Origin: a bacterium | Lineage (GTDB): Bacteria > Patescibacteriota > Patescibacteriia > UBA1558 > GWA2-36-10 | Assembly (NCBI GenBank): GCA_018653315.1 | Contig: JABIAL010000016.1 | Location: 3,433 to 67,432, forward strand | Direction: 5' to 3' | Length of the DNA stretch: 64,000 nt | In this document: piece after piece, positions 24,571 to 62,667 of the stretch | How the letters are laid out: each line of letters opens with the position of its first letter | How positions within the stretch are numbered: the first letter of the stretch is position 1 | Program-made: the position numbers and the translations under genes | The notes under the pieces: generated by a model | Seen by the model: the letters and a program-made list of their open reading frames with translations, nothing else | The model's database searches: none | Told to the model about the DNA's origin: nothing

Positions 24571-24640
24571 CTCGACTTCGCTCGTGGTCTTCGACCATAA
24601 AAATTTAGTGTCCTGAGCGAGTGAAACGAGTCGAAGGGCA
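24571..24640 (+). repeat. GC-rich tRNA 3'-trailer element: ctcgacttcgctcg ... gtcctgagcgagtgaaacgagtcgaagggc
   Basis: A member of a recurring motif pair (CTTCGACT.CGCTCAG and inverted GTCCTGAGCG..AGTCGAAGGGC) found immediately 3' of five tRNAs in this window. Confidence 0.6.
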
Positions 24641-35799: not shown

Positions 35800-35913
35800 G
35801 TGTAGATGATGTGTGTCCTTCGATTCCTTCTCGTTATTCTCCGAAGTCACTCAGGACAAGTTTCTCCAAGCTGAAGCGGCTCGACTGAGCTCGCCGTAGT
35901 CCTTGTCGAAGCT

Positions 35914-45393: not shown

Positions 45394-45404
45394 ACATTTT
45401 TTAT

Positions 45405-45448
45405 AAAACCCCGCCCTGAGCATAGTCGAAGGGCGGGGTTTTTATTTT
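45405..45448 (+). terminator. intrinsic terminator whose loop carries the GTCCTGAGC..AGTCGAAGGGC repeat core
   Basis: aaaaccccgccct-gagcatagtcga-agggcggggtttt followed by tatttt. Confidence 0.7.
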
Positions 45449-45509
45449 GCTATTGTCAAGATGCTATTAAATATAGTATAATTACATCGTTAAAATTTAG
45501 ATTTTTATT

Positions 45510-48630: not shown

Positions 48631-48713
48631 TCCTTCGACTCCGCTCAGGATGACAAAATTCCTTGTATTTTTCTCTGATTTTAGGTATTATTTAATAAAT
48701 TATTATAAAAATT

Positions 48714-50003: not shown

Positions 50004-50126
50004 GATAACTCGCTTCGGCGAGTTGACGCCGAGATAGCTCCTGCCTACGCTACCGTGCTTCGCCATAGCGGCTACGCGACGGCAAGAAGCTTAGGCAAGG
50101 CAGGCAGTTGGCGGGGGATAATTTTT

Positions 50127-57767: not shown

Positions 57768-58655
57768 ATGTTTAATATTGTATTTACAATTTTAATCATT
57801 GCCTCGCTTATATTTATTATTTGGTTAATAATTCAAAAATTACCAAAATTAATAAATATCAATGTAGCTAATTTGCCACATTTTCAAGTGAAGCAAAAAA
57901 AAGAAGATATTCTAAAGACTCGTATTAAAAGAGATTTAGTAAAGGTGTTTTCTAGTTGGCGACATATTTCATTACCGGCTCGTGATAGAGTTTTTGATTG
58001 GTTCAAAAATAATTATAGTAAACTAAAAGAATTAGAAAAAGATTTACGTCGTCGTAGTTTGCAACAATTTAGTTCAAGCCTTGATAAATCACAGACAGTT
58101 GATGAATTGTTATTAGAGGCAAAAAACGCTATTAATAACGAAGAGTACGATAAGGCAGAAAATTTATTATTAGAAGTTTTGGCAATTGACCAATACAGTA
58201 TAGAATCTTATAAAATATTAGCAGAGGTTTATCGAGATAAAAAAGAATACGAGCAAGCTAAAGAAACTTTGCAATATTTATTAAAGTTAACCCACAATGA
58301 AGATGCAGGAGTTTTTACTTCTCTAGCAGAGCTAGCACATACTCGTGGTAATCTAAAGCAGGCTGAAGATGAATATTTGCGTTCTATATCTTTGGCTGAG
58401 GATAATTATCTTAATTTTTTATCATTAGCAGAAGTATATATAGAGTTAGATGATCAAGAAAGTGCTTTAGAATCAGCTCAAAGAGCATTGTCGTTAGCTC
58501 CAAATAACCCTAAGGTTCTTGACTTTTTGATAAATATCAGTATAATTATTCAAGATAAAGAACTAGCCAAGAAGTATTTAGGTAGATTGAAAGAGGTAAA
58601 TCCAGAGAATCAGAAGATAGCTCATTTTATAGAGAATATTGATAAATTACATTAA
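57768..58655 (+). CDS. TPR-repeat protein with N-terminal TM anchor
   Basis: TM helix IVFTILIIASLIFIIWLI followed by several 34-aa TPR-like repeats (A...Y....G....A...Y). Confidence 0.6.
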   Translation: MFNIVFTILIIASLIFIIWLIIQKLPKLININVANLPHFQVKQKKEDILKTRIKRDLVKVFSSWRHISLPARDRVFDWFKNNYSKLKELEKDLRRRSLQQFSSSLDKSQTVDELLLEAKNAINNEEYDKAENLLLEVLAIDQYSIESYKILAEVYRDKKEYEQAKETLQYLLKLTHNEDAGVFTSLAELAHTRGNLKQAEDEYLRSISLAEDNYLNFLSLAEVYIELDDQESALESAQRALSLAPNNPKVLDFLINISIIIQDKELAKKYLGRLKEVNPENQKIAHFIENIDKLH

Positions 58656-58676
58656 TCATAATACAATTATATTGTG

Positions 58677-58712
58677 AGTTGGCTAGTGTTTTAGTCAACT
58701 TTTATTTTTTAC
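58677..58712 (+). terminator. intrinsic terminator
   Basis: gagttggct-agtgttt-agtcaactt (with g.u pairs) followed by ttatttttt. Confidence 0.5.
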
Positions 58713-58713
58713 A

Positions 58714-58819
58714 TGGGTCTGGTATCCTTCGGCGTTGCTCAGGATTACCGGACAATAATTTTTATATGGGTCTGGTATCCTTCGGCGTTGCTCAGGATTA
58801 CCGGACAATAATTTTTATA
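58714..58819 (+). repeat. two tandem 53-nt direct repeats whose 5' ends mimic the tRNA-Tyr 5' end (pseudo-tRNA fragments plus duplicated leader/promoter)
   Basis: tgggtctggtatccttcggcgttgctcaggattaccggacaataatttttata occurs at 58714 and 58767. A third phase begins at 58820 with the genuine tRNA-Tyr (gggtcggtaccgaagcgg). Confidence 0.7.
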
Positions 58820-58820
58820 T

Positions 58821-58906
58821 GGGTCGGTACCGAAGCGGTCAAACGGGGCAGACTGTAAATCTGCTGGCTTTCGCCTTCGGGGGTTCGAATCCCTCCCGGC
58901 CCACCA
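58821..58906 (+). tRNA. tRNA-Tyr (anticodon GUA), type II with long variable arm, CCA encoded
   Basis: Close to canonical bacterial tRNA-Tyr: ...ccgaagcggtcaaacggggcagacTGTAaatctgc..., long variable arm, T-loop ttcgaat, acceptor gggtcgg/ccggccc. Confidence 0.85.
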
Positions 58907-59049
58907 CTCGATTCGCTTTTTGCTTCGCAAAAGCTCACTCGTGGTCGCCGGTGCTTGATAGCACCTTTGACCTTTCTTTTTAAAGAATCGAGTGTCCCGA
59001 GCGAACGAAGAGAGTCGAGGGACATTCAAATAGGATAAAAAGAAAAGCA

Positions 59050-59301
59050 ATGAAGAAATACTATATTTATCTAGCTAGATGTAATGATCAAACCCTCTAT
59101 ACGGGATACACAAGTAATTTAATACAAAGAGAGGCTAAGCACAATGCAGGAGAAGGTGCGAAATACACCAGGGCTAGACGTCCAATACGAATTATTTATT
59201 CTGAGAAATTTAATACAATAAGCGAGGCCATGATAAGAGAATGCCAAATAAAGAGCTGGACAAAATTGAAGAAAGAAAAATTAATTAAGAAACAACCATA
59301 A
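59050..59301 (+). CDS. GIY-YIG nuclease-family protein (UPF0213-like, 83 aa)
   Basis: YYIYLARCNDQTLYTGYTSNLIQREAKHN contains the GIY...YIG motifs and the catalytic Arg/Glu pattern. Confidence 0.8.
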   Translation: MKKYYIYLARCNDQTLYTGYTSNLIQREAKHNAGEGAKYTRARRPIRIIYSEKFNTISEAMIRECQIKSWTKLKKEKLIKKQP

Positions 59302-59306
59302 TCTGT

Positions 59307-59381
<75 letters not shown>

Positions 59382-59487
59382 TTCGACTGCGTTTTACTCC
59401 ATAAAACTCCGCTCATGGCCGTTGGCCACTTACTATAACATTTTATATATATCAAAGTCGAATGTCCTGAGCGTAGCCGAAGGGCGT
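59382..59487 (+). repeat. tRNA 3'-trailer element: ttcgactgcg...ctccgctcatgg ... agtcgaatgtcctgagcgtagccgaagggcg
   Basis: Same motif pair as after tRNA-Glu, tRNA-Tyr, tRNA-Asn and tRNA-Lys. Confidence 0.6.
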
Positions 59488-59496
59488 TACAATAAC

Positions 59497-61150: not shown

Positions 61151-61248
61151 TATATATCATTCAGAGAATTGCATATATCGTATTTTCTGAGATGTGCACC
61201 TTAAAAAAAGAACAAGAACAAGAAAATAAAGAAAGAAGGAGAAAGAAA

Positions 61249-62667
61249 ATGGAAACCTTACAGAGTTTTCTCATGAATTTGGGCTGGGGTCAGTCCATTA
61301 GTCACGGTATCGCTTGGGTTATGATTTGGATCGGCGTAGCGGCTGTTATTGCTTTGGTGCTATACAAAGTTTTGGCAGAACTTTTGACGTCAATGGATCT
61401 GTCAAAGAAGAAGAATAAACAAATTCTAGCACGTCTAAACGCCGCCTTTAGTGTTGCTTGGTTACTGTATTTTGTCATCCTACTTTGGATGCATAAGACT
61501 GGTAACTCAGTAGATGCAATTGTGCCAGAAATTGGAACGCCAAAATTTTCAATTCCTTGGTGGAAACTATTGTTTTCATCAATAGTTGTATTATCTGTTA
61601 TGCCGTTGTGGATTAAAACCCTTAGATCAAGTTTCTTTATTGACTTAAGGAACATCATCCAAGGTCAAGATCCTAAGTCAACTAACCCACCAAAACCGCA
61701 CTGGTTATCACTAGCTTCTGTCGTGTTATTAGTCTTAGGTCTGCTTTCTATTTTTTGGTTAGGCAAGGCGAGTATATATGTCTTACCATTAAGTTTGGCA
61801 GTTTCTTATTGGCTTGGTGGTATCATCATGGTGCCAATCAAGGAATACTACTTGCCTGTCTGGACTGAACAACCAATGTCTCTTATGGGCGATCTTGTTT
61901 CCAAGAAAGGTAAAGATCGTTATCATATCTTTAAGAGTGGTTTTCATTGGTTCTGGATTCCTACATGGTTTCCATGGTTCAAGATTTTCATGCTAAGACA
62001 TGAATCTGTGGAGCGTGTAGGTATCACTGCACAGGTGCCTACAGCACAGGCTGACGCTGGTGAGAGTGAGGATGATGCTGTTGATGCTAATATCATCGGT
62101 GCAACTATTGCTACTACCTTTCGTCTGACTTTAATGATTGGTCATGTGCCTAGTGTATTTTTGGACATGTCAAACGAGGAACAGGCTAGTATTTTGTTGG
62201 TGGCGATTCGTATCACCGAGGGTTGGTTAGCGAAGAATTATCGGGTTAAAAATATCCAAGAGATTATCTCTTGGGATCCGATGAAGCCTGAGTCTCCAGA
62301 AGACACTGCAGTCTTAGAAGATCTGAAGAATCTTTTATTACAGCGTATTGGTTGCAAGTTTGTTGGCATCCAGTTTATGGATCACAATCCAGCAGCAGAA
62401 CTGGAAGATGCATCTAATAAGTTGGCTGCAGTTCGAGCAGAAAAGCAACGAGAGGGCATTCTCGGTGAAGCTGCTGGTTTGCATCTTAATCAGGAGATTA
62501 AGCAGGTACTTAGTTTAATTGCAGTTGACCCTGAGCACCCTACTGCTGAAGAAAAAAGCTCTGCAATGAGATACATCATTGAGCGTGACGAGGCTTCTCG
62601 TTCAGCACATATTATGCCACGTGGTAGTGGTGGCGCTGGTGTGATGGTCAATCACCCTGGACAGTAA
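61249..62667 (+). CDS. polytopic membrane protein with C-terminal SPFH/band-7-like domain; GC-richer than background
   Basis: Start METLQSF preceded by AAGGAG-8-ATG (the ORF-track start at 61192 has no RBS). Four or more TM helices, then an SPFH-like core (...VERVGITAQVP....DAVDANIIGATIATTFRL....NEEQASILLVAIRITEGWL...) and a coiled-coil. Confidence 0.45.
   Translation: METLQSFLMNLGWGQSISHGIAWVMIWIGVAAVIALVLYKVLAELLTSMDLSKKKNKQILARLNAAFSVAWLLYFVILLWMHKTGNSVDAIVPEIGTPKFSIPWWKLLFSSIVVLSVMPLWIKTLRSSFFIDLRNIIQGQDPKSTNPPKPHWLSLASVVLLVLGLLSIFWLGKASIYVLPLSLAVSYWLGGIIMVPIKEYYLPVWTEQPMSLMGDLVSKKGKDRYHIFKSGFHWFWIPTWFPWFKIFMLRHESVERVGITAQVPTAQADAGESEDDAVDANIIGATIATTFRLTLMIGHVPSVFLDMSNEEQASILLVAIRITEGWLAKNYRVKNIQEIISWDPMKPESPEDTAVLEDLKNLLLQRIGCKFVGIQFMDHNPAAELEDASNKLAAVRAEKQREGILGEAAGLHLNQEIKQVLSLIAVDPEHPTAEEKSSAMRYIIERDEASRSAHIMPRGSGGAGVMVNHPGQ

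What the first reader, a model, noticed from the sequence alone, without database searches (positions are those of the whole stretch)
58714..58906. Two 53-nt tandem repeats of a pseudo-5'-tRNA-Tyr plus leader immediately upstream of the real tRNA-Tyr
The unit tgggtctggtatccttcggcgttgctcaggattaccggacaataatttttata occurs twice (58714 and 58767). The genuine tRNA-Tyr begins in the third phase (58820, gggtcggtaccgaagcgg). The repeats therefore start with a decayed copy of the tRNA's first 18 nt, followed by a segment containing ttgctc...tttttatat (promoter-like). Interpretation: the 5' part of the tRNA gene plus its promoter were serially duplicated, giving tandem promoters or decoy 5' fragments. 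Alternatively, this is the scar of an integrative element that used tRNA-Tyr as its attachment site, although attachment normally involves the 3' end.
Basis: seen in the sequence. Interest (0 to 1): 0.5.

Follow-up and report, generated by a model that had tools for sequence, protein, structure and literature searches.

The report
Duplicated hairpin scar before tRNA-Tyr
Just upstream of the tRNA-Tyr gene of an uncultured Patescibacteria bacterium sits a 53-base module, present here in two exact tandem copies, made of a copy of the gene's leader/5' junction plus a GC-rich hairpin; it looks like the gene-less form of an insertion hotspot that in related genomes holds small GIY-YIG nuclease genes, not a set of extra promoters.

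Summary
The repeat is real. Two exact 53-nt units (58714-58766, 58767-58819) are followed by tRNA-Tyr (58821-58906). Only the AT-rich leader plus tRNA nt 1-9/11 are shared with the real gene, not 18 nt. Each unit is a 12-bp GC-rich hairpin plus a 14-nt spacer.

Near-identical contigs carry one or two copies. A sister species (genes ~80% identical) has one copy with a 39/39 identical hairpin. Several relatives have an empty site, with the same upstream terminator-like hairpin and leader running straight into the tRNA. Others have, at that junction, the same variant fragment GGGTCTG, then other GC-rich hairpins and an 80-aa GIY-YIG gene, bounded by 14-22 nt direct repeats of the local leader plus tRNA 5' end.

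No promoter-like or terminator-like site lies in the unit. A conserved TTGACT-N16-TATAAT inside the upstream TPR gene is the likely tRNA promoter.

Best reading: an ORF-less remnant or miniature of a cassette at the tRNA 5' junction, amplified by recombination or slippage between the junction repeats, and transcribed as disposable leader.

Unexplained: the hairpin's 20-nt core occurs exactly in at least 120 unrelated metagenome contigs.

The parts
58519..58546 (+). Promoter-like TTGACT-N16-TATAAT inside the 3' end of the TPR gene; likely promoter of the tRNA-Tyr/tRNA-Thr transcript
   Evidence: 11 of 12 consensus match. It lies at -137 from the TPR stop in 14 of 15 relatives, with invariant hexamers and a variable spacer.
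58676..58711 (+). Terminator-like hairpin 'hp0' plus T-run after the TPR gene. It is shared by filled and empty sites in relatives.
   Evidence: Terminator scan. The same hairpin is in L007, L087, L224 and the empty site L226.
58703..58719 (+). Junction repeat copy 1 (TATTTTTTACATGGGTC): leader plus first 5 nt of the tRNA-like fragment
   Evidence: family D2. The left junction TTTTTTACATGGGTCTG is identical to that of the cassette in L224.
58714..58766 (+). Unit 1 (53 nt): pseudo-5' fragment GGGTCTGGTA, hairpin, AT-rich spacer
58717..58753 (+). Hairpin of unit 1: 12-bp stem with a 1-nt bulge plus a small apical stem
   Evidence: MFE -17.8 kcal/mol, z = -3.6. The 39-nt core 58715-58753 that contains it has 59% GC, in a 33% GC genome.
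58725..58744 (+). 20-nt core TCCTTCGGCGTTGCTCAGGA, a member of the CCTGAGC..CGAAGG motif family read on the opposite strand
   Evidence: (I2/I3). It occurs exactly in at least 120 metagenome contigs.
58754..58767 (+). Spacer AATAATTTTTATAT (duplicated leader)
58767..58819 (+). Unit 2, identical to unit 1; absent from L003, L004 and L005
58778..58797 (+). Second copy of the 20-nt core
58821..58906 (+). Genuine tRNA-Tyr (GTA)
   Evidence: ARAGORN; Rfam tRNA 56.5 bits
58907..59049 (+). Expanded tRNA-Tyr trailer. It contains a long-range stem (58905-58914 with 58985-58994) and a forward copy of the motif family (about 58992-59025). L226 and L089 have only 17-29 nt here.
   Evidence: (I15)
59050..59301 (+). 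Resident 83-aa GIY-YIG gene between tRNA-Tyr and tRNA-Thr
   Evidence: Pfam PF01541, E = 5.9e-18. Syntenic in L087, L089 and L226; 67-75% aa identity to the L087 and L089 copies.
59307..59381 (+). tRNA-Thr (GGT)
59382..59496 (+). About 110-nt insertion between tRNA-Thr and its terminator, carrying a forward motif copy (about 59461-59488). It is absent in L087, L089 and L226.

Best explanation
The 53-nt unit is non-coding filler lodged at the leader/5'-end junction of tRNA-Tyr. It consists of a duplicated copy of that junction (AT-rich leader plus GGGTC(T)GGTA) and a GC-rich hairpin belonging to a family of short insertion elements that populate tRNA flanks in this AT-rich Patescibacteria genome. 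It is the ORF-less form, either remnant or miniature, of an insertion hotspot. In related genomes that hotspot holds the same variant fragment followed by other GC-rich hairpins and an 80-aa GIY-YIG nuclease gene, all bounded by direct repeats of the local leader plus tRNA 5' end.

Because the module is bounded by 15-17 nt direct repeats, unequal recombination or replication slippage between them can add or remove whole units. Copy numbers of 0, 1 and 2 are all observed in the clade, and the two identical copies here are a recent expansion.

The units probably lie in the 5' leader of the pre-tRNA, transcribed from the conserved promoter inside the TPR gene, and would be discarded when RNase P cuts at 58821. 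They would therefore be tolerated rather than needed.

Shown: the repeat, its copy-number variation, the filled and empty sites, the homologous left junction, and the absence of a promoter or terminator match.

Inferred: the way the cassette inserts, the transcription and processing, and the neutrality.
For: Repeat and hairpin.

Copy number: 1 or 2 copies in contigs at least 99.9% identical. There is one copy in the sister species L007/L093.

Empty sites: L226 and L089 keep a terminator-like hairpin and T-rich leader before the tRNA (L226 has the same hp0 and leader TTTTTTACAT|GGGTCGGTACC); in L009, L095-L100 and L223 the tRNA follows the TPR stop almost directly.

Filled sites with cargo:
- L224/L225 and L091 have TTTTTTACAT|GGGTC-T-[double hairpin]-GGTACC..GIY-YIG..leader|GGGTCGG, with exact direct repeats of 15 and 14 nt.
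- L087/L088 have a pseudo-5' half (nt 1-9, a TCC..GGA hairpin at the same position as in the window, then nt 16-35) plus a GIY-YIG gene, with a 22-nt direct repeat.

Shared derived characters of the pseudo-fragments, read by eye from the sequences: window GGGTCTGGTATCCTT, L224 without its double hairpin GGGTCTGGTACCTT, real tRNA GGGTCGGTACCGA.

The sequence after the window hairpin, TTAC-CGGACAA, aligns with L087's TTACACGGTCAA (p = 0.024).

Family membership of the hairpin: 8 motif hits in 64 kb against 0.8 in shuffles, most of them beside tRNAs, and 19 of 24 identity to the tRNA-Asn trailer element.

The same architecture occurs at tRNA-Thr in L091 and L094: a pseudo-5' fragment with an inserted palindrome, a spacer, then the real tRNA.

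Promoter and terminator: no match in the unit; conserved promoter inside TPR.
Against: - No GIY-YIG ORF or recognisable ORF remnant lies inside the window's unit, so descent from a cassette rests on the shared junction and short similarities (p about 0.02).
- The hairpin core is 39/39 identical between two species whose genes are about 80% identical. That could mean purifying selection, hence a function, rather than neutrality or recent transfer.
- One-copy contigs could be collapsed assemblies of a two-copy locus.
- No mechanism is known by which an 80-aa GIY-YIG domain protein would generate 14-22 nt target duplications.
- Transcription and RNase P processing are untested.
- No other copy of this exact hairpin exists in the 64-kb window.
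Confidence: 0.55

Rival explanations
1. The hairpin is a functional element of the pre-tRNA-Tyr leader RNA, for example a processing or stability signal, an RNase P decoy or entry site, or an attenuator. Its duplication changes dosage.
For: It has a strong, well-defined fold (-17.8 kcal/mol, z = -3.6). Its 12-bp stem is the length of an acceptor/T-stem stack (established knowledge of RNase P minihelix substrates). The core is 39/39 conserved while neighbouring intergenic DNA is 67% identical. It lies downstream of the conserved promoter. By my inspection, its 3' arm can also pair with the tRNA's first 11 nt.
Against: It is absent from most relatives with the same tRNA and locus and is replaced by unrelated hairpins plus a gene in others. 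Copy number differs between near-identical genomes. No sequence variants are available, so no covariation can be shown. There is no Rfam match.
Confidence: 0.2
2. Tandem promoters: each unit carries a promoter (TTGCTC ... TTTTTATAT) that fires.
For: The unit has an AT-rich TATAT-like stretch directly upstream of the tRNA and a TTG-containing hexamer. A weak TTGCTC-15-TAATTT arrangement would place a start near tRNA +1 (my inspection).
Against: No site passes the consensus scan. TTGCTC matches the -35 consensus at 3 of 6 positions (read by eye). Spacings to the AT-rich hexamers are 13, 15, 20 or 22 nt (my inspection). Relatives with an empty site have only about 10-15 nt between the TPR stop and the tRNA. 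A much better conserved promoter lies upstream.
Confidence: 0.04
3. attL/attR-type scar of an integrase-driven integrative element that used tRNA-Tyr as its attachment site.
For: A partial tRNA copy beside an intact tRNA is the classical signature of such elements (established knowledge).
Against: The duplicated part is the 5' end plus leader, not the 3' part. No integrase or recombinase gene lies in the neighbourhood; the neighbours are peptidase S11, TIM, FBA, TPR, GIY-YIG, Fpg and SdpI. The repeat-bounded segments are 39 nt to about 0.35 kb. The direct repeats match each genome's own leader.
Confidence: 0.05
4. The second copy, or the one-copy variant, is an assembly artefact rather than a biological polymorphism.
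For: Short tandem repeats are often collapsed or expanded by short-read assemblers. Many contigs of this clade break at this locus (L002, L006, L088, L090, L092, L094, L098-L100). L003 has about 3.5x coverage according to its contig name.
Against: Two copies appear in the window, L001 and L006, and one copy in L003, L004 and L005, from different samples and assemblers. The whole array (124 nt) is shorter than the k = 141 of the megahit contigs L004-L006. Two assemblies of the sister species both show one copy.
Confidence: 0.12
5. The unit is an internally deleted second tRNA-Tyr gene: 5' acceptor strand joined to the variable-arm, T-arm and 3' acceptor region.
For: There is an ungapped 19 of 33 match between the unit interior and the last 33 nt of tRNA-Tyr, including CCTTCGG and CCGG at the same spacing (p < 0.0002 for that register; about 0.01 after correction for about 54 registers).
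Against: The interior contains a 20-mer that is exactly identical to sequences in at least 120 unrelated contigs. It is 19 of 24 identical to the tRNA-Asn trailer element, which explains it better. CCGG is forced by stem complementarity. Gapped alignment to the tRNA is not significant (p = 0.17). ARAGORN and the Rfam tRNA model do not detect it.
Confidence: 0.08

Closest known systems
Free-standing GIY-YIG homing endonuclease genes in tRNA gene clusters (phage T4 SegB; PMC2330249)
   Same: A small GIY-YIG gene is lodged between or beside tRNA genes. It is present or absent among close relatives. For SegB the tRNA sequence itself is the recognised target.
   Different: SegB recognises the T-psi-C stem-loop and spreads by gene conversion without leaving partial tRNA duplications. 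Here the junction is the tRNA 5' end plus leader, the cargo is bounded by 14-22 nt direct repeats, the proteins are about 80-aa catalytic domains with no DNA-binding domain, and the window's unit has no ORF at all. Endonuclease activity is untested.
Partial tRNA gene copies at the ends of integrase-driven genomic islands and prophages (established knowledge)
   Same: An intact tRNA lies next to a fragment of the same tRNA, marking an insertion site.
   Different: Those duplicate the 3' part, need an integrase and span kilobases. This one duplicates the 5' end plus leader, has no integrase, and spans 53 nt to about 0.35 kb.
Mobile GC-rich hairpin elements of AT-rich organelle genomes: GC-rich palindromes flanking tRNA genes in Neurospora mitochondria (Yin et al. 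1981, cited in PMC4478555 and PMC2800124), yeast mitochondrial GC clusters (PMC4478555), Allomyces double-hairpin elements (Paquin et al. 2000, cited there), sponge RHEs (PMC2800124)
   Same: GC-rich hairpins in an AT-rich, compact genome. They concentrate beside tRNA genes, occur as single elements and tandem arrays, vary in presence at orthologous sites, and appear in both orientations.
   Different: This is a free-living-type bacterial genome (Patescibacteria), not an organelle. Sequence motifs are unrelated as far as tested. This hairpin is embedded in a duplicated tRNA 5' junction. The 20-nt core is shared with many unrelated environmental bacteria.
E. coli tyrT locus: tandem 178-bp repeats downstream of tRNA-Tyr, each carrying the last about 19 nt of the tRNA (recalled from the literature, not retrieved here)
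   Same: Tandem repeats next to a tRNA-Tyr gene that each contain a short terminal piece of the tRNA, thought to arise by unequal recombination.
   Different: That array is on the 3' side, has longer units and no GC-rich hairpin module. This one is on the 5' side, has 53-nt units, and shows no evidence of coding.

Membership tests
Tandem direct repeat generated by slippage or unequal recombination | Head-to-tail identical units | tested here: met
   Two 53-nt units are 100% identical and a partial third is present.
Tandem direct repeat generated by slippage or unequal recombination | Copy-number variation between otherwise identical genomes | tested here: met
   1 or 2 copies occur in contigs at least 99.9% identical. 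Assembly collapse is not formally excluded.
Sigma-70 type promoter | -35 and -10 hexamers (at least 4 of 6 each) with a 16-18 nt spacer | tested here: not met
   No site inside 58703-58820 appears in the scan.
Intrinsic terminator | GC-rich stem followed within 0-2 nt by a T-run | tested here: not met
   The unit is not reported by the scan, and the T-run starts 6 nt after the stem. The upstream hp0 (58676-58701) does meet the definition.
tRNA gene or tRNA-like pseudogene | Cloverleaf detectable by ARAGORN or the Rfam tRNA model | tested here: not met
   Only 58821-58906 is called, even at E up to 10.
Integrase-type integrative element att site | Integrase or recombinase gene adjacent to the site | tested here: not met
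   Neighbouring genes are peptidase S11, TIM, FBA, TPR, GIY-YIG, Fpg and SdpI.
Integrase-type integrative element att site | Identity block covering the 3' part of the tRNA | tested here: not met
   The duplicated block is the leader plus tRNA nt 1-9.
Free-standing GIY-YIG homing-endonuclease cassette | GIY-YIG ORF inside the inserted segment | tested here: not met
   There is no ORF in the window's unit. The feature is met in relatives L091, L224 and L087 at the same junction.
Free-standing GIY-YIG homing-endonuclease cassette | Filled and empty alleles among close relatives | tested here: met
   Empty: L226, L089, L098, L095, L223, L009. Filled: window, L007, L087, L091, L224.
Free-standing GIY-YIG homing-endonuclease cassette | Site-specific cleavage of the empty allele | not testable with these tools
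   This needs a biochemical assay.
Mobile GC-rich hairpin elements (mitochondrial GC-cluster, DHE or RHE-like; REP or MITE-like) | GC-rich palindrome in an AT-rich genome | tested here: met
   The hairpin is 59% GC and the window 33%.
Mobile GC-rich hairpin elements (mitochondrial GC-cluster, DHE or RHE-like; REP or MITE-like) | Several dispersed copies in the genome | tested here: inconclusive
   The motif family has 8 hits in 64 kb against 0.8 expected, but this exact hairpin occurs only at this locus in the window.
Mobile GC-rich hairpin elements (mitochondrial GC-cluster, DHE or RHE-like; REP or MITE-like) | Presence or absence at orthologous sites | tested here: met
   The unit is present or absent upstream of tRNA-Tyr. 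Motif-bearing trailers after tRNA-Tyr and tRNA-Thr are absent in L089 and L226.
Mobile GC-rich hairpin elements (mitochondrial GC-cluster, DHE or RHE-like; REP or MITE-like) | Defined short target-site duplication | tested here: inconclusive
   The flanking direct repeats are 14-22 nt and include tRNA sequence. That is too long for a typical TSD and could reflect recombination.
Any Rfam RNA family | Covariance-model match | tested here: not met
   Only tRNAs reach threshold. Nothing covers the unit at E up to 10, or the 20-mer in 20 metagenome loci at E up to 1.

The most novel reading that the evidence does not exclude
Small GIY-YIG genes together with GC-rich hairpins form a so far undescribed kind of cassette in Patescibacteria. 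It inserts, without an integrase, at the 5' boundary of tRNA genes, duplicating the leader plus the first 5-22 nt of the tRNA. The 53-mer is its miniature, non-autonomous derivative, which can still amplify. Its 20-nt core, shared exactly with at least 120 unrelated environmental contigs, would be a widely conserved recognition or structural motif of unknown function.
Probability: 0.3. Interest if true: 0.6.

Novelty: new variant of a known kind. Interest (0 to 1): 0.4.

Why it matters
The tandem copies themselves are probably harmless leader DNA. They do, however, mark a recurrent insertion hotspot at the 5' junction of tRNA-Tyr (and tRNA-Thr) in a clade of ultra-small Patescibacteria, where GC-rich hairpins and tiny GIY-YIG nuclease genes come and go between close relatives.

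Mobile DNA that uses tRNA genes is classically described at the 3' end and with integrases. A 5'-end, integrase-free version would widen that picture. It would also give a concrete test substrate for the unknown activity of stand-alone 80-aa GIY-YIG proteins: an empty allele (L226 type) against a filled one (L224 type).

The locus also breaks many metagenome assemblies, which matters for binning and for tRNA annotation in this group.

Tried and rejected
- Promoter and terminator scans of the unit: no hit.
- Rfam at E up to 10 around the locus, at gathering threshold on the whole window, and at E up to 1 on 20 metagenome loci carrying the 20-mer: only tRNAs.
- tRNA 5' end against its own upstream region for 18 tRNAs: the window's tRNA-Tyr is not significant on tRNA sequence alone. 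L091 and L094 tRNA-Thr are highly significant, the window's tRNA-Thr(CGT) is borderline (p = 0.017), and tRNA-Glu is not significant.
- Exact matches of at least 10 nt between the first 30 nt of each of 66 tRNAs and its upstream flank: only L087 Tyr and L091 Thr, so this is a feature of this locus and clade, not of tRNAs generally.
- Internally deleted tRNA hypothesis: an ungapped 19 of 33 match, but a gapped test is not significant and the cosmopolitan 20-mer explains the interior better.
- Association of the 20-mer with tRNAs (3 of 123 within 400 nt) and with GIY-YIG ORFs (1 of 121 loci, 1.3 kb away): both rejected.
- 'Variable stem enclosing a conserved loop' for the 20-mer: flank complementarity is no better than shuffled controls.
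- Viral contigs: one hit for the 20-mer and none for the cassette GIY-YIG protein.
- Plasmid collection: chance-level hits only.
- Literature by sequence words: nothing relevant.
- The paper on group I introns in Patescibacteria tRNA genes (PMC13011429) mentions neither GIY-YIG genes nor tRNA fragments of this kind. The cassettes are not introns, because a complete tRNA follows them.
- Folding of the whole leader plus tRNA: nested pairing between units versus separate hairpins could not be resolved.

Full report
**Observation**

The sequence at 58714-58906 is as described.
- The 39-nt core GGGTCTGGTATCCTTCGGCGTTGCTCAGGATTACCGGAC occurs exactly twice (58715-58753, 58768-58806), with none in 100 shuffles.
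- Tandem Repeats Finder gives period 53, 2.4 copies and 97% matches over 58706-58829.
- ARAGORN and the Rfam tRNA model place tRNA-Tyr(GTA) at 58821-58906.
- The partial third copy is the junction TAATTTTTATATGGGTC, one of three copies of a 17-nt junction repeat (58703, 58756, 58809).

The unit shares with the tRNA only GGGTC-GGTA-CC (nt 1-11, with two single-base insertions). By my position-by-position reading, nt 12-18 match at 2 of 7 positions. The tRNA-body similarity alone is not significant (p about 0.15). 'First 18 nt' is therefore an overstatement. What is repeated is the leader/5'-end junction.

**Anatomy**

Each unit folds into a hairpin with a 12-bp stem, one bulge and a small apical stem (-17.8 kcal/mol, z = -3.6). 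The hairpin core is 59% GC in a 33% GC genome. A 14-nt AT-rich spacer, AATAATTTTTATAT, follows it.

Upstream lies the TPR gene (57768-58655) with its own terminator-like hairpin and T-run (58676-58711). Downstream come tRNA-Tyr, a 143-nt trailer, an 83-aa GIY-YIG gene (59050-59301; Pfam E = 5.9e-18), tRNA-Thr, a second long trailer, a terminator and fpg.

**Who it belongs to, and copy number**

The closest relatives by FBA similarity are deposited mostly as Patescibacteria-group or simply uncultured-bacterium MAGs.

Contigs that encode the identical TPR protein fall into two classes.
- Two units: the window, L001 (NCBI GCA_018657795.1, 100% identical over 7148 nt) and L006 (contig ends inside unit 2).
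- One unit: L003, L004 and L005, which are otherwise at least 99.9% identical.

These come from different samples and assemblers. The 124-nt array is shorter than the k = 141 of three of them, so real polymorphism is likely, but assembly collapse is not excluded. Many contigs of the clade end at this locus, as expected for a repeated and variable region.

**Comparative evidence**

Relatives were fetched through homologues of the TPR protein.

| State of the site | Loci | What is there |
|---|---|---|
| Hairpin only, one unit | L007, L093 (sister species) | Hairpin core 39/39 identical. FBA and TPR genes are 79-80% identical at nucleotide level and the adjacent intergenic DNA 67%. |
| Empty | L226, L089, L095-L097, L098-L100, L223, L009 | L226 has the same terminator-like hairpin and leader running into the tRNA: ..GGTCAACTTTTAATTTTTTACAT\|GGGTCGGTACC. 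|
| Filled, with cargo | L224/L225, L091 | TTTTTTACAT\|GGGTC-T-GCGCCAAAGGCGC-A-CTCGCCTCTGGCGAG-GGTACC.., an 80-aa GIY-YIG gene, then leader\|GGGTCGGTACC (the real tRNA). Exact direct repeats of 15 nt (L224) and 14 nt (L091). |
| Filled, with cargo | L087/L088 | A pseudo-5' half of tRNA-Tyr (nt 1-9, a TCC..GGA hairpin, nt 16-35), a GIY-YIG gene, a 22-nt direct repeat. The whole cassette is apparently present twice across an N-gap. |

The window's left junction TTTTTTACATGGGTCTG is identical to that of L224. With L224's double hairpin removed by eye, its fragment reads GGGTCTGGTACCTT. The window reads GGGTCTGGTATCCTT and the tRNA GGGTCGGTACCGA. The pseudo-fragments therefore share derived characters.

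The window's hairpin starts after GGTA with TCC and ends with GGA, as in L087. The following TTAC-CGGACAA aligns with L087's TTACACGGTCAA, which is the tRNA D-loop (p = 0.024).

The same architecture occurs at tRNA-Thr in L091 (20 nt exact) and L094: a pseudo-5' fragment carrying a GC-rich palindrome, a short spacer, then the real tRNA. Among 66 tRNAs in all fetched loci, exact matches of at least 10 nt between a tRNA's 5' part and its upstream flank were found only in this clade.

Filled and empty sites are interleaved along the gradient of TPR identity. This speaks for repeated gain or loss.

**The hairpin's relatives**

Read on the opposite strand, the loop belongs to a family with the form CCTGAGC..(N)..CGAAGG. 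The family has 8 hits in the window against 0.8 in shuffles.
- Five hits lie in the trailers after tRNA-Glu, -Lys, -Asn, -Tyr and -Thr.
- One forms the loop of a gene terminator at 45416.
- The other two are the repeat units themselves.

The unit is 19 of 24 identical to the element directly after tRNA-Asn. The motif-bearing trailers after tRNA-Tyr and tRNA-Thr are missing at the orthologous positions in L089 and L226, so these GC-rich segments are themselves insertions.

This resembles the GC-rich palindromes flanking tRNA genes in Neurospora mitochondria, yeast mitochondrial GC clusters, Allomyces double-hairpin elements and sponge hairpin elements (PMC4478555 and PMC2800124, and references cited there).

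**Promoter question**

No promoter-like or terminator-like site is found inside the unit. In the empty-site relatives L009, L095, L098 and L223 the tRNA begins about 10-15 nt after the TPR stop codon.

A TTGACT-N16-TATAAT element (58519-58546; 11 of 12) lies at -137 from the TPR stop. It keeps both hexamers in 14 of 15 relatives while its spacer varies.

The tRNA operon is therefore most likely transcribed from inside the TPR gene. The units would then be part of a 5' leader of about 270 nt that RNase P removes. This is an inference; RNase P RNA is not in the window.

**Mechanism proposed**

The unit is filler at a tRNA 5'-junction hotspot, bounded by 15-17 nt direct repeats. Unequal recombination or slippage between these repeats adds or deletes whole units. 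The 100% identity of the two copies indicates a recent event.

The link to GIY-YIG cassettes rests on the shared junction and fragment. How such cassettes insert is unknown, and the 14-22 nt repeats match each genome's own leader. T4 SegB, a GIY-YIG homing endonuclease in a tRNA cluster that recognises a tRNA motif (PMC2330249), is the nearest characterised analogue. It leaves no partial tRNA duplications.

The perfect conservation of the hairpin between species fits either recent horizontal spread or selection. A leader-RNA function therefore remains the main rival.

**Unexplained**

There are 102 distinct flanks, and contig GC ranges from 37 to 68%. By my estimate about one hit would be expected by chance.

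These copies are not associated with tRNAs, GIY-YIG ORFs, any Rfam family, plasmids or any paper found by sequence words.

**Verdict**

The promoter interpretation is not supported. The 'scar of something that uses the tRNA' idea is partly right, but at the 5' end and without an integrase. The repeat itself is of modest interest. The hotspot and the cosmopolitan 20-mer are more interesting.

Noticed in passing
The right flank prefers CAGGC. It is not linked to tRNAs, GIY-YIG ORFs, Rfam families or plasmids.
   Followed up: partly
window 24613-24637, 35817-35854 (-), 45416-45432, 48632-48648 (-), 58997-59021, 59467-59483: A GC-rich motif family CCTGAGC..CGAAGG, usually closed by complementary flanks, lies in the trailers of five of the six tRNAs. 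One copy forms the loop of a canonical terminator after a protein gene (45400-45450). There are 8 hits against 0.8 expected, counting the two repeat units.
   Followed up: partly
window 58519-58546: A near-consensus promoter TTGACT-N16-TATAAT is embedded in the 3' end of the TPR coding sequence. Its hexamers are invariant in 14 of 15 relatives while the spacer varies. It is probably the tRNA-Tyr/Thr promoter.
   Followed up: yes
L091 3875-3939; L094 3443-3494: Pseudo-5' fragments of tRNA-Thr, each interrupted by a GC-rich palindrome (CCTGCCTGCCGGCAGGCAGG in L091; TCCGCCAGCCGGCGGA in L094), lie directly upstream of the real tRNA-Thr. This is the same architecture as the window's 53-mer.
   Followed up: yes
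L087 3447-4043: A pseudo-5' half of tRNA-Tyr (to the anticodon) plus a GIY-YIG ORF appears to be present twice in tandem across a run of N. The two pseudo-copies differ by one base. This could be a scaffolding artefact.
   Followed up: no
window 58907-59049 and 59382-59496: The tRNA-Tyr and tRNA-Thr trailers are expanded by about 110 nt each relative to L226 and L089. The two trailers are paralogous: (C/T)TCGA(T/C)T.., an AT hairpin, CTC..CTC(A/G)TGG(C/T)C, and a stem back to the CCA end.
   Followed up: partly
window 50027-50039: GCCGAGATAGCTC, 100 nt upstream of tRNA-Thr(CGT), matches the tRNA's first 13 nt at 11 positions and is followed by GC-rich palindromic sequence. Significance is borderline (p = 0.017). 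A 7-nt match (AGGTCCC) upstream of tRNA-Glu at about 24436 is not significant.
   Followed up: partly
window 59050-59301; L091 3521-3763; L224 1623-1865; L087 3775-4026: There are two classes of about 80-aa GIY-YIG proteins. One is a syntenic class after tRNA-Tyr (GEGAKYT motif; the window, L087 and L089 copies are 67-75% identical to one another; also present in L226). The other is a cassette class before tRNA-Tyr (KSGQGRKYL C-terminus; L091 and L224 are 70% identical). The two classes are about 40-44% identical to each other.
   Followed up: partly
L002, L006, L088, L090, L092, L094, L098-L100, L222: Many independent metagenome contigs of this clade end within about 150 nt after the TPR gene, so this locus systematically breaks assemblies.
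   Followed up: no
L222 2890-2931: The double-hairpin module of the L224/L091 cassette (CGCCAAAGGCG and CTCGCCTCTGGCGAG) occurs in inverted orientation directly after the TPR stop codon in another relative; the contig then ends.
   Followed up: no
window 61192-62667: A 491-aa ORF has only a weak, sub-threshold Pfam hit to Bac_rhodopsin (E = 8e-4, 19 bits against a cut-off of 24.6).
   Followed up: no
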